A stretch of 64,000 nt of DNA from Promethearchaeia archaeon (GTDB lineage: Archaea > Asgardarchaeota > Lokiarchaeia > Sigyniarchaeales > SOKP01): contig JAHQWK010000023.1 of the NCBI GenBank assembly GCA_029856145.1, positions 32,001 to 96,000 on the forward strand. The letters run 5' to 3'. The notes under the pieces were generated by a model. It did no database searches and was not told the origin of the DNA. It worked only from the letters and a program-made list of their open reading frames with translations. Both the position numbers and the translations under genes were made by a program. This document shows, piece after piece, positions 29,621 through 34,371 of the stretch (positions within the stretch are counted from its first letter, which is position 1; the number at the start of each line of letters is the position of its first letter).

Positions 29621-31066
29621 TCAATCAATCTCAAGAATCCTTTTTACTAATTTTTTCTTTTCTGCTAAATTAGCTTGACGAGATATCATAATTCTTTGTG
29701 CTTGAGGAGACCCCGCTCCATGCATAGACTCTGTTTTATAACTGACAGAAGCTACACCCATAGTTAGGTTCTCTATAAAACGTAAAACTTTATATCTATC
29801 TTCAGCACAAATTCCTTCACATGTAGTCAAGTACTTTTCAATTAAAGGCCCTATTTCTTCCGATTTAAGATCTGCCTCAGAAGGCATTGTACAAATCATA
29901 CCTCCTGCAATATCTTCAGCAAGTCTTCCAATTTCATAGGGAAAGCGTGTAACATTTTGTTTACATACATTAGCTAATAACATATCCATTTCATAGTTTC
30001 CTGCTTCTCTTTGAAAACCTAATGAACTACATGCAATCCCACAACTATATAAAGTTTCATTTAAATGTGTCATTTCAACAAGTTTATCTCTAATATGTGA
30101 TGCTTTTTCAGTACCATTATATTCTGAGATTAGAGCTGTCGCTCCTATTAACACGTCTCCAACACCCACTTTACATCCACCATAAGATTGTCGGTGAAAT
30201 CCTGCAAATCGATTAACTAATTCTCCCGAAAATTCAACTTCACCCTTCATAAAAATATTTTCTTTAGGAATAAAGACATCATCGAAGATTACAAAAATTT
30301 CTTGACCTCCATACTTGAAATTACCGATATCTAATTTACCATCTTCTATCTTCCGTGTATCGCACGATTGTCTCCCATATACTAATGTTATTCCCTTTTC
30401 ATTTGTATCTATTCCAAAACTTACAGCATATTCCTCTTCACCTAGTCTTAATGAAAGAGTAGGCATAATGATTGCCCGATGTGAGTTAAGAAATCCTGTT
30501 TGATGTACTTTAGCCCCTCTAACTATGAGCCCATCATCATTCTCATTAACTATATGTAGATAAGCATCAGGATCTGGTTGATCTTTGGGTCTTTTACTTC
30601 GATCTCCCTTAGTATCTGTCATTGCCCCATCAACCATTAGATCTTGTATTTGAACTTCAGTCCAATATTTTATAAATCGTTTATGATAGTTTGTATTATT
30701 TTTTTTATCCATTTCATAAGTAATACTGTATAAAGCATTCGCAGTGTCAAAACCTACACATCTTTGAAAACAACAGACTGTATATTGCCCCAATAATCTT
30801 TGCATTTTAACTTTTTTTACTAAATCCTCTGTAGATTGGTGAATATGAGTGAATCGATTTATGATTTCTCCAGTAAGATGTGATTTTGTCGTCATTATAT
30901 CTTTATATTCTTCCATTTGGGCTAATTCATAAATCTTCATTACAGTATTAATTGAAGGTTTGATAATCGGATGATTCCAAAATTCCTTTACTTTTTCACC
31001 AAACAAATATAAATTTACTGGACGTTTAATACTTTCTAAATACTCTTCAGGTGTTTTTAATGGCAT
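29621..31066 (-). CDS. abfD: 4-hydroxybutyryl-CoA dehydratase
   Basis: CFQRCVGFD, MTDTKGDRS, FHRQSYGGCK, HGAGSPQAQ. Confidence 0.9.
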   Translation of the reverse strand: MPLKTPEEYLESIKRPVNLYLFGEKVKEFWNHPIIKPSINTVMKIYELAQMEEYKDIMTTKSHLTGEIINRFTHIHQSTEDLVKKVKMQRLLGQYTVCCFQRCVGFDTANALYSITYEMDKKNNTNYHKRFIKYWTEVQIQDLMVDGAMTDTKGDRSKRPKDQPDPDAYLHIVNENDDGLIVRGAKVHQTGFLNSHRAIIMPTLSLRLGEEEYAVSFGIDTNEKGITLVYGRQSCDTRKIEDGKLDIGNFKYGGQEIFVIFDDVFIPKENIFMKGEVEFSGELVNRFAGFHRQSYGGCKVGVGDVLIGATALISEYNGTEKASHIRDKLVEMTHLNETLYSCGIACSSLGFQREAGNYEMDMLLANVCKQNVTRFPYEIGRLAEDIAGGMICTMPSEADLKSEEIGPLIEKYLTTCEGICAEDRYKVLRFIENLTMGVASVSYKTESMHGAGSPQAQRIMISRQANLAEKKKLVKRILEID

Positions 31067-31166: not shown

Positions 31167-32870
31167 CTATTTTTTTCTATTTACACACGCTTTGATAAAG
31201 TCTAAGTAAAGGGGGGATGGATTATACGGACGTGATTTAAATTCGGGATGGAATTGAGTACCAACCATCCAATGATCTTTTCTATCTAATTCTATACTAT
31301 TAATTATTTTTCCAGTTTCATCTCGGCTAGATACTCGCAAACCTTTTTCTTTGGCTTCAATATTTATAAATTTCTCTTGAATGTGAAATCTATGTCGATA
31401 CCGTTCAAATATTTCCTCTTGTTTATATGCTTCATAAAGCCGTGTACCTTTCTCAACAACTATTTTTTGAGCACCTAATCTCATAGTGCCACCAATTTCA
31501 GTTACTCCTTTCTGACTTTCTAAAATATCTACAACGGGATATGGAGTATTAGGATCAATTTCAGTTGAATTTGCTTTTTTTAAACCCAGATATTTTCTAC
31601 AGAAAGCTACAAAAAATAATTGAGCTCCGAAGCATATTCCAAGAAAGGGAATTTTTTCTTCCATAGCATATTCTGCTGATTTTATCATCCCTTCTACTGC
31701 TCTTTCCCCAAATCCAGGAGTAAGTAAAATACCATCACAATCTTTCAGCTGTTCCATAATATTTGTATTTCCTTCTATATTAACCATTTTCAATTCTGTT
31801 TTATACCCTAAATGAGCAGCAGCGTCTTCTAAAGCAACATTAATAGAAATATAAGAATCTGAAATGTTAAAATATTTTCCTGGCATTCCGATTTTAACGG
31901 TTTTTTTAGCTTTTTTAAATAGTTCAACCATCTTTACCCATTCAGAGTAATTTGTTACCTCACTATAGGCAACCAATTTTGCCTTCAAATCAATAAGTTC
32001 GCAAATAAGATCTCCTAATCCCTGTTCCTCGAACAATAGAGGTAATTCATAAACGATTTCTAAATCTGGGTTAGAAATTACAGCATTTTCGGGGACGTTA
32101 GAATATAGGGATATTTTTCTTTTAATGTCATTATCTAAAGGTTTTTCGCTTCTGCCTATTATTAAATCGGGTTGTAATCCTAGACTTTGGAGCATCTTCA
32201 CACTATGCTGCGTCGGCTTTGATTTCTGTTGCCCTACAGCTCTAGAATAAGGAATAAGAGTAACATGAACAAAAGCAGTTCGCTTTGGATATGCTAATTT
32301 TAATTGTCGAAATGCTTCTAGAAATATGCTTGATTCTAAATCTCCTACTGTACCTCCACATTCAATTAATAACACATCTAAATCTTCTTTTTCAGCAATT
32401 TCCATTAATCGTTCCTTTATTATATCTGTTACATGCGGTATTATTTGAACAGTTTTCCCCAAAAATCTTCCCTTTCTTTCACTAAGGATTGTAGAAAGAT
32501 AAATTTGGCCTGATGTTATATTATGGGATGGGTGCATCTCAATTCCTAGTATTCTAGAATAAGTGCCAAAATCCTGATCAATTTCAGAAATTCTATATGA
32601 TCTTTCATCAGATCCAGGGACTGGTCTAAAATTCCATACATCTTCGGTAATAAAACATTCTCCATGCTCAATTGGGTTCAGAGTCCCGGGATCTACATTT
32701 AAATATGGATCTATTTTAACTACTGATACTTTAAAACCACGAAATTGAAGTACCTTACCAATACTGGCAGTTGCGACGCCCTTGCCATAGCCTATTATAA
32801 TGAAATATTATAATATTATGCCAGACATCACACCGCCCGTTACAAATACAAATTTACTACTCGAATTCAT
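31167..32870 (-). CDS. pyrG: CTP synthase split by a 30-nt insert (exon 1 32870-32817, exon 2 32786-31167; 557 aa if spliced)
   Basis: KFVFVTGGVMSG[I]GKGVATASIG, KIDPYLNVDPGT, GKTVQIIPH, GGTVGDLE, KSKPTQ, GICFG, QFHPEF. Confidence 0.93.
32787..32816 (-). other. Putative BHB/BHL-type mRNA intron in pyrG
   Basis: 30 nt, in-frame TAA at 32810-32808, perfect 9-bp internal hairpin, flanking exon-exon helix; removal restores SGIGKG. Confidence 0.7.
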
Positions 32871-33159: not shown

Positions 33160-34371
33160 TTATTCAAATTCAAAGACTACCTTAAGTGAGTCATGTTCAC
33201 TCTTGTTTGAAGCCACTTCCAATGCCTCTTTATATTTTTCCAAGGAAAACTTATGAGTTATAAAATCGCTCACCTTGACTTGTCCAGATGATATTAAAGC
33301 TAAAGCAATTTGCAAAGTTCGTTTTTTCTCACCATTAATAATTTCAGTACCAAAGGTATTTGAGGCAATAACAGTTATTTCTTTAACAAATAATGGTGTC
33401 CAATCGAGTTCCAAATTAGCAGGTTGTCCTATTAATATGAGAGTCCCTTTTGGTTTTACTAATCTAAGGCTAGTAGTTAAAGATGATGGAATTCCTACAC
33501 AATCAAAAATAATGTCCGCACCACCCCCGACAAGTAATGGATCTTGTAATGGTGGTGACACTGTCCTTACTCCTAATTTTCTTGCGATTTTTCTTATAAA
33601 TGTACTCTTACTTGCTAAAAAAACCTCATCTGCACCCATTTTCGTCGCTAAATCAATTTGAGACTGTCTTGTATCAATAGCTATGATTTTACAATTTGAG
33701 AATGCTTTCAAGGCTAATATCGAACATAATCCCATTACCCCACATCCAACAATTATTACTTTTTCATTTTCTTTTGGAATCTTTTTCAATACTCCATGAA
33801 TTGAACCTGCTAAGGGTTCGGAAATCAAAGCATCTTCAAAAGAAATTGAATCTGAAATCTTTAAAACCTGATTTTTATGCGCAATAACATATTCTCCCCA
33901 CCCTCCACCAGTATCTTTACAAAAACCCATCATAAATCCTGGAGAAATATCACCTTTATCGACATTATAACATAAAATAAAATCTCCTTCTTTGCAAGCA
34001 TCACATAATTCAAGGCCCCTTACTTCACAACTTAGGACTTCATCAATTAATACTCTATCTCCAACAGATAAATTCTTCACATTTGCTCCTACTTCAGTAA
34101 TAGTCCCTACAATTTCATGACCTGGAACTGCAGGAGTAGATATAAAATTAAGTTGATAAGTAGATTGCTTAATCTCTAATATATGGATATCTGTTCCACA
34201 AATACCTCCTAATTTTACCTTTATTTTAACCCAATTATCATTGATTAATTCTGGTTCAGGAACATCATCATATGTTACTAATTCATGGATTTTAGATGTA
34301 AAATTAGGATCTGATCTCTTTTTATTTAATAATTCGAGAAATTTTTCAGCGGTTATTCTTAAAGCTTTCAT
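33160..34371 (-). CDS. Zn-dependent medium-chain dehydrogenase
   Basis: GICGTD, GHE, C..CDAC..C, GCGVMG. Confidence 0.92.
   Translation of the reverse strand: MKALRITAEKFLELLNKKRSDPNFTSKIHELVTYDDVPEPELINDNWVKIKVKLGGICGTDIHILEIKQSTYQLNFISTPAVPGHEIVGTITEVGANVKNLSVGDRVLIDEVLSCEVRGLELCDACKEGDFILCYNVDKGDISPGFMMGFCKDTGGGWGEYVIAHKNQVLKISDSISFEDALISEPLAGSIHGVLKKIPKENEKVIIVGCGVMGLCSILALKAFSNCKIIAIDTRQSQIDLATKMGADEVFLASKSTFIRKIARKLGVRTVSPPLQDPLLVGGGADIIFDCVGIPSSLTTSLRLVKPKGTLILIGQPANLELDWTPLFVKEITVIASNTFGTEIINGEKKRTLQIALALISSGQVKVSDFITHKFSLEKYKEALEVASNKSEHDSLKVVFEFE

What the first reader, a model, noticed from the sequence alone, without database searches (positions are those of the whole stretch)
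32765..32870. Candidate EndA-type (BHB/BHL) intron in the pyrG mRNA of an Asgard-like archaeon
Seen: the mRNA reads GGCGGU GUGAUGUCU GGCA UA^A [UAUUAUAAU AUUUC AUUAUAAUA] GGCU AU^G GCAA GGGCGUCGC A ACUGCC. The insert lies in the conserved TGG..SG.GKG motif, has an in-frame UAA, and contains a perfect 9-bp hairpin. The exons pair (GUGAUGUCU with GGGCGUCGC; GGCGGU with ACUGCC) and use GC-rich codons (GGC, GTC, GCC) in an otherwise A/T-ending gene. Established: EndA cuts after the 2nd nt of each 3-nt bulge flanking a 4-bp helix; such mRNA introns are known for crenarchaeal cbf5. Applying that rule gives 1+23+4+2 = 30 nt (32816-32787) and joins TCT GGC ATA|GGC AAG GGC = SGIGKG. The rest of the gene is intact. 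Inference: CTP synthase expression needs tRNA-type splicing, possibly as a regulatory step. Caveat: the motif is relaxed (GGCA/GGCU helix has one A-G mismatch and one G-U; the 3' bulge is a 7-nt loop).
Basis: partly seen in the sequence, partly recalled or inferred. Interest (0 to 1): 0.93.

Follow-up and report, generated by a model that had tools for sequence, protein, structure and literature searches.

The report
tRNA-type intron in Lokiarchaeal pyrG
The only CTP synthase gene of this Loki-type Asgard archaeon is broken by a 30-base insert that related genomes keep in the shape cut by the archaeal tRNA-splicing enzyme, so its messenger RNA very probably has to be spliced, which the papers I could search show inside a coding sequence for only one other archaeal gene (cbf5).

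Summary
Observation confirmed; intron reading supported at about 0.9; the 'regulatory step' is unsupported. The single pyrG is split at SGI|GKG by 30 nt (32816-32787) carrying an in-frame TAA. An independent contig carries the same insert, so it is no assembly error. Fourteen distinct copies in this genus keep a bulge-helix-bulge fold (96% of cells paired, five pairs with double changes, one between exon and intron; 0/500 shuffles). Only the EndA cut register both fits that fold and restores SGIGKG in all 14. Interrupted genes stay under purifying selection (dN/dS 0.03-0.06 in nine of ten pairs, as in intact ones). Stop type varies, and another genus has a 32-nt frameshifting insert at the same site, which argues against readthrough. 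The host encodes a two-subunit EndA with the broad-specificity loop, plus RtcB. Presence is patchy on the gene tree (at least 8 changes), which fits a dispensable, repeatedly lost intron. Two other pyrG sites in other Asgard lineages and uL11 in this genome carry similar inserts. No spliced RNA was found, so splicing remains inferred. This scan reported the same kind of intron before on other DNA, including the two other pyrG sites.

The parts
32817..32870 (-). pyrG exon 1, 18 codons, ending in Ser-Gly-Ile
   Evidence: matches the N-terminus of intact relatives
32787..32816 (-). candidate 30-nt intron (1 + 9 stem + 5 loop + 9 stem + 4 + 2)
   Evidence: absent from intact relatives, present at this site in 14 distinct copies; register test
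32819..32822 (-). exon strand of the 4-bp central helix H (GGCA)
   Evidence: pairs with 32792-32789; 94.6% of cells paired, one exon-intron double change
32816..32818 (-). 5' three-base bulge UA|A, predicted 5' cut between 32817 and 32816
   Evidence: invariant in 14 copies; EndA rule as described in PMC2738675
32793..32815 (-). intron hairpin h': 9-bp stem, loop AUUUC; holds the in-frame TAA at 32810-32808
   Evidence: 96% paired, 4 pairs with double changes
32789..32792 (-). intron strand of the central helix (GGCU here, UGCU in most copies)
32786..32788 (-). 3' bulge AU|G, predicted 3' cut between 32787 and 32786; first A invariant; closed by one pair (32823 with 32785) or open as a larger loop
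32766..32837 (-). exon-exon pairing around the intron (32837-32826 with 32778-32766 is the better kept part)
   Evidence: duplex energy -19.2 in interrupted vs -8.6 kcal/mol in intact sister alleles
31167..32786 (-). pyrG exon 2, 539 codons, intact synthetase remainder and glutaminase domain (GICFG cysteine, HPE motif)
   Evidence: TIGR00337 PyrG 597 bits, over cut-off

Best explanation
The insert is a small tRNA-type (relaxed bulge-helix-bulge) intron in the pyrG messenger. The transcript folds so that the last bases of exon 1 and the end of the insert form a 4-bp helix between two 3-base bulges; the host's two-subunit splicing endonuclease EndA cuts after the second base of each bulge and RtcB joins the exons, restoring SGIGKG of the nucleotide-binding motif and a 557-residue CTP synthase. 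It behaves as a tolerated, constitutively removed element that is kept spliceable by selection where present and is lost precisely and often. Shown: the insert, its conserved and covarying fold, the unique register, selection on the gene, presence of the enzymes' genes. Inferred: transcription, cleavage, ligation, which enzyme acts, and that removal is constitutive.
For: Only pyrG in a 97%-complete genome. Same 30-nt insert in 7 of about 39 genus genomes with the 5' end assembled, plus 7 further contigs. BHB pairs in 14 copies: 95.9% paired, 5 pairs and 9 cells with double changes, 0/500 shuffles, slid controls 26-47%. G070 changes the exon Gly codon GGC to GGT together with the partner base in the insert. 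Of ten deletion registers only offset 0 scores H 3.79/4, h' 7.71/8, closing pair 14/14, and it gives VMSGIGKGV in all. Insert identity 0.81 vs 0.44 at four-fold sites; GGY-ATA before the junction in 15/15 interrupted vs 13/69 intact genes; synonymous sharing is confined to codons 12-18. dN/dS 0.026-0.058 in nine pairs of interrupted genes and 0.126 in one close pair, vs 0.027-0.059 among intact genes; the 83 codons before the first internal ATG are equally constrained. EndA catalytic subunit is closest to Aeropyrum pernix 3P1Z chain B, with the loop lysine and catalytic histidine aligned; the second subunit lacks that histidine; RtcB intact. That EndA type cleaves relaxed motifs and is reported for Asgard (PMC5829648). 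Host tRNA-Ser and tRNA-Gln introns also have 3/4 central helices. Independent inserts at two more pyrG sites and in uL11 obey the same rule.
Against: No spliced transcript, circular intron or peptide was found. In this copy the central helix has near-zero predicted probability and the BHB fold costs 4.4 kcal/mol over the best fold, though three host tRNA introns cost 4.3-4.7 by the same measure. The outer exon helix next to the 3' bulge is a single pair. The 32-nt copy in G225 has only 2/4 central pairs. Copies are related, so shuffle and Fisher values overstate significance.
Confidence: 0.9

Rival explanations
1. The gene is a pseudogene: the insert inactivated a dispensable pyrG.
For: In-frame stop; pyrG was not found in 13 of 54 genus genomes, and four 97-99% complete ones had no match to the C-terminal part either; G075 holds an intact second copy.
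Against: dN/dS equals that of intact genes across dS 0.25-1.7 and no interrupted gene has a second lesion; the insert is better conserved than neutral sites and covaries; six of seven insert-bearing genomes show no other copy, and the G075 second copy is distant and may be contamination (8%).
Confidence: 0.02
2. Translational recoding: the ribosome reads through the stop or hops over the hairpin (T4 gene 60-like), or restarts downstream, with no RNA cutting.
For: All 14 genus copies are 30 nt, a multiple of three; a stable stop-containing hairpin follows the junction.
Against: Stops vary (TAA, TAG, TAG-TGA, one or two, two positions); readthrough would put ten residues into an ungapped motif; a 32-nt insert at the same site and 28, 31 and 32-nt inserts elsewhere shift the frame yet restore the protein at the EndA register; hopping does not explain exon-intron covariation of the 4-bp helix, and the codons at the two ends do not match in most copies; a restart would lose the TGG..SG motif, which stays conserved.
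Confidence: 0.04
3. It is a spliced intron, but one whose removal is regulated (for example by a competing fold that responds to nucleotide levels), making it a control element for CTP synthesis.
For: This copy has a competing fold more stable than the BHB fold; pyrG has been hit at three or more independent sites in Asgard archaea.
Against: At least 8 gains or losses among close relatives; the competing fold is weak or absent in several copies (central helix probability 0.5-0.9 in three); like inserts sit in uL11, a cold-shock protein and NifU of the same genome; no sensing element was identified.
Confidence: 0.08
4. The insert is removed or absent at the DNA level in living cells: assembly artefact, or a DNA element that excises.
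For: Short AT-rich hairpin with a GGC repeat near both ends.
Against: Identical in an independent assembly and divergent in 13 further copies; deletion between the GGC repeats gives SGY, SGK or a stop, not SGI; the sequence occurs only in pyrG among 54 genomes and not in viral contigs.
Confidence: 0.01

Closest known systems
cbf5 pre-mRNA intron of Crenarchaeota (Desulfurococcales, Sulfolobales; PMC2738675, PMC10485636)
   Same: Short intron inside a conserved catalytic-site motif of a protein gene; relaxed BHB at the exon-intron borders; cuts predicted between bulge bases 2 and 3; host has the two-subunit EndA type
   Different: Different gene and phylum; cbf5 splicing is shown by cDNA and in vitro cleavage, this is not; the cbf5 intron is old with few losses, this one is patchy within one genus; here several genes of one genome are affected
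HVO_1309 5' UTR intron of Haloferax volcanii (PMC7714728)
   Same: BHB intron in an mRNA removed by EndA
   Different: Lies outside the coding sequence, 46 nt, homodimeric enzyme; does not break a reading frame
Asgard tRNA introns (bioRxiv 10.64898/2026.10.13.758758) and relaxed HBh'/BHL tRNA introns (PMC5829648)
   Same: Size (host tRNA introns 18-30 nt), hairpin form, imperfect central helix, repeated gain in Asgard lineages
   Different: Target is an mRNA; no sequence match between this insert and any other locus of the genome above 23/30; that preprint does not treat mRNA

Membership tests
Archaeal BHB (EndA-type) intron | Intervening sequence absent from homologues, whose removal restores the conserved product | tested here: met
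Archaeal BHB (EndA-type) intron | 4-bp central helix formed by exon 1 end and intron end | tested here: met
   3/4 here, 4/4 in 11 of 14 copies, one exon-intron double change
Archaeal BHB (EndA-type) intron | Two 3-base bulges with junctions after the second base of each | tested here: met
   register test; structure and protein criteria coincide at offset 0
Archaeal BHB (EndA-type) intron | Intron-side helix h' | tested here: met
   9 bp, 96% paired, 4 pairs with double changes
Strict hBHBh' motif | Exon-side helix h of two or more pairs directly closing the 3' bulge | tested here: not met
   one pair in 14/14, second pair in 2 of 7; so it is a relaxed motif (HBh'/BHL-like), as for cbf5
Archaeal BHB (EndA-type) intron | Host encodes an EndA able to cut relaxed motifs, and a ligase | tested here: met
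   genes only; substrate range taken from PMC5829648
Archaeal BHB (EndA-type) intron | Spliced RNA and excised (circular) intron exist in cells | tested here: inconclusive
   no RNA-derived contig found by protein look-ups; raw reads not searchable
Archaeal BHB (EndA-type) intron | Cleavage by EndA in vitro | not testable with these tools
   needs biochemistry
Group I/II or spliceosomal intron | Ribozyme core, or GT...AG ends | tested here: not met
   30 nt, ends AT...AT, no Rfam match
MITE or repeat element | Multiple dispersed copies | tested here: not met

The most novel reading that the evidence does not exclude
EndA/RtcB splicing of protein-coding messages is routine in Asgard archaea: tiny BHB introns repeatedly invade and leave conserved motifs of core genes (pyrG at three or more independent sites, uL11 and others), giving the closest prokaryotic relatives of eukaryotes an intron-in-mRNA system with fast turnover that standard annotation reads as truncated genes.
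Probability: 0.8. Interest if true: 0.88.

Novelty: new variant of a known kind. Interest (0 to 1): 0.78.

Why it matters
Reviews up to 2023 list two archaeal mRNAs as EndA substrates, only cbf5 inside a coding sequence (PMC10485636, PMC7714728); seven literature searches found no report for Asgard mRNAs or for pyrG. A stop-carrying, covarying intron in a single-copy metabolic gene, with sisters that lack it, gives a direct test system for how introns enter and leave protein genes in the lineage closest to eukaryotes. It also has a practical side: public records call these genes as truncated proteins beginning MCYGKG, MYYGKG or at residue 102, so Asgard gene sets and 'missing gene' claims may be affected.

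Tried and rejected
Search for spliced RNA: no intact protein in the database equals the joined product of any insert-bearing gene. The best candidate, P0157 with the same N-terminus, lies on a DNA metagenome scaffold and has different synonymous codons; P0151, P0126 and P0004 are likewise other intact alleles. The same search for the cold-shock gene gave no identical full-length protein. Source of the insert: no second copy in the genome, the genus or viral contigs; no Rfam family. Alternative deletion registers rejected. One clade of insert-bearing genes rejected (AU p = 2e-5); whether this reflects one gain with many losses or sideways spread is not resolved. RNAalifold did not recover the central helix on 7 copies. 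My genome-wide motif scans are noisy and incomplete: they recover pyrG, uL11, a cold-shock gene and NifU among 39-45 mostly false candidates, so no genome total is claimed. Splits of PF06418 matches in G051, G059 and genus g21 are in-frame loop insertions, not introns. The bacterial promoter scan was uninformative. Searches were input slips; 65 was corrected, 83 replaced.

Full report
1. Observation. The minus strand carries a CTP synthase gene from 32870 to 31167. Read straight through, it gives 18 normal codons, ten codons with a TAA in third place, then GKGVATAS and 539 codons to the end. The region folds better than all 200 shuffles (z -3.7). It is the only PF06418 match in a genome rated 97% complete. 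Exon 2 alone passes the PyrG cut-off, and intact relatives align without a gap across SGIGKG to solved CTP synthases. A JGI contig from a separate assembly, 99.64% identical, has the same insert. Close relatives are Promethearchaeota (Loki-type) genomes.

2. Distribution. Among 54 genomes of the genus, seven carry a 30-nt stop-containing insert at this junction: G000, G001, G008, G015, G061 (Loki_b32), G070 and G075. A metagenome scan and protein look-ups added seven more copies. All other relatives read SGIGKG or a close variant without a break. On a maximum-likelihood tree of the joined coding sequences the insert-bearing genes are interleaved with intact ones: 10 changes, at least 8 forced by strongly supported branches, one clade rejected at p = 2e-5. 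The intact sisters have the exact motif, so each loss (or gain) is precise.

3. Structure. On 14 copies the BHB model (one closing pair, 4-bp central helix, 9-bp intron stem) has 95.9% of cells paired, five pairs with changes on both sides, none of 500 shuffles as high, and slid controls at 26-47% (related sequences inflate such tests). The most telling change is in G070, where the exon glycine codon went from GGC to GGT while the partner base inside the insert went from G to A. I tried all ten ways of deleting 30 nt around the junction. The insert is far better conserved than four-fold sites (0.81 vs 0.44), and the two codons that form the central helix and 5' bulge are GGY-ATA in 15/15 interrupted genes against 13/69 intact ones. 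Shared synonymous codons are confined to codons 12-18. Caveat: in this copy a competing fold is 4.4 kcal/mol more stable than the BHB fold; three of four host tRNA introns tested show 4.3-4.7 by the same measure.

4. Selection. dN/dS between interrupted genes is 0.026-0.058 in nine pairs (dS 0.25-1.7) and 0.126 in one close partial pair; intact pairs give 0.027-0.059. The 83 codons between the junction and the first internal ATG are as constrained as in intact genes, and exon 1 keeps its residues. No interrupted gene has a second lesion. A pseudogene or an internal restart is therefore unlikely. Stops inside the insert differ among copies, and G225 in another genus has 32 nt at the same junction, which readthrough cannot rescue.

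5. Machinery. The genome has two EndA genes. One is closest to the catalytic subunit of Aeropyrum pernix (3P1Z chain B, E 1e-34) and aligns through the crenarchaeal-type loop with its lysine and through the catalytic histidine; the other lacks that histidine, as expected of a structural subunit. PMC5829648 reports that this enzyme type cleaves relaxed motifs and that Asgard archaea have it. RtcB is intact. Host tRNA-Ser(CGA) and tRNA-Gln(CUG) introns have 3/4 central helices, so the host enzyme must already accept such mismatches (inference).

6. Not an isolated case. A search of 400 genomes of the phylum exposed two more pyrG sites: 31 nt after DQDFGT in eight genomes of four genera, and 31-32 nt within KIDPY in four genomes of another family; both restore the motif at the EndA register. 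In this genome uL11 is split by 28 nt with a perfect central helix, shared by 12 genus genomes, and cold-shock and NifU genes carry like inserts. Earlier notes of this scan describe the same kind of intron on other DNA, including those two pyrG sites, and some claim RNA evidence; I found the two sites before the look-up, and I did not verify the RNA claims.

7. Mechanism. Most likely (0.9): transcription of the whole gene, folding of the junction into a relaxed BHB, two cuts by EndA after the second base of each bulge, exon joining by RtcB, translation of a 557-residue enzyme. Shown are the anatomy, covariation, register, selection and enzyme genes; cutting and joining are inferred from cbf5 (PMC2738675; PMC10485636). 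I found no spliced sequence. Regulation is not supported: sisters do without the insert, the competing fold is not conserved, and unrelated genes carry the same kind of element. How it spreads is open; it has no other copy in the genome, the genus or viral contigs.

8. Comparison and novelty. It works like the cbf5 intron and meets every sequence-level feature of an archaeal BHB intron except a full exon-side helix, so it is a relaxed motif; the in vivo and in vitro features are untested. Published archaeal mRNA substrates are cbf5 and the 5' UTR of HVO_1309. Seven searches of the paper library found nothing on pyrG or on Asgard mRNA introns; a 2026 preprint on Asgard tRNA introns does not mention mRNA. 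Subscription journals are not covered, so prior publication cannot be excluded. The chemistry is known; the gene, the lineage, the multi-gene scale and the fast turnover are new. Verdict: new variant of a known kind, interest 0.78.

Noticed in passing
L160-L167 (G207, G215-G220, G228), pyrG after DQDFGT: A second, independent 31-nt frameshifting BHB-type insert in 8 genomes of four other genera; varied stem sequences, fixed central helix GUAC/GUAA, exon helix of 4-5 bp; removal gives DQDFGTYERF in all.
   Followed up: partly
L148-L151 (G083-G086, another Asgard family), pyrG in KIDPY|LN: A third site: 31-32 nt inserts with a full 4/4 central helix and 2-4 bp exon helix, a textbook motif.
   Followed up: partly
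L145 (G225, same family, other genus), pyrG SGI|GKG: 32-nt insert at the very same junction as the finding, different sequence, only 2/4 central pairs; either a diverged homologue or a separate gain.
   Followed up: partly
G000:C28:14768-14741 (-), L206-L217: The uL11 ribosomal protein gene of this genome is split by a 28-nt frameshifting insert with a 4/4 central helix, shared by 12 genus genomes including the closed genome CP070831; about 24 others are intact. Like pyrG it follows GGCATA. Further uL11 breaks nearer the start appear in G008, G016, G065, G067 and others.
   Followed up: partly
G000:C6:11627-11598 (-) and G000:C10:33334-33363 (+): 30-nt stop-carrying BHB-like inserts in a cold-shock protein gene (VK|WFN) and a NifU-domain gene.
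   Followed up: partly
G011, G071, G017, G065: No pyrG found in four genus genomes rated 97-99% complete, by family and by protein search; 13 of 54 lack the N-terminal domain match. Real loss or assembly gap not resolved.
   Followed up: partly
G000 tRNAs (C2, C3, C7, C9, C18, C20, C22): Many tRNA genes carry 16-43 nt inserts, some at non-standard positions that ARAGORN misplaces; only 27 calls in a 97%-complete genome, several spurious.
   Followed up: no
G146:C27:5334-6122: pyrG of another Asgard family with one in-frame TGA and no length change.
   Followed up: no
window 29621-31066 (-) and 33160-34371 (-): pyrG lies between a zinc-dependent dehydrogenase gene and an HpaB-family (4-hydroxybutyryl-CoA dehydratase-like) gene; the same neighbours flank insert-bearing copies L224 and L225, and the HpaB gene follows the intact copy L175.
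   Followed up: no
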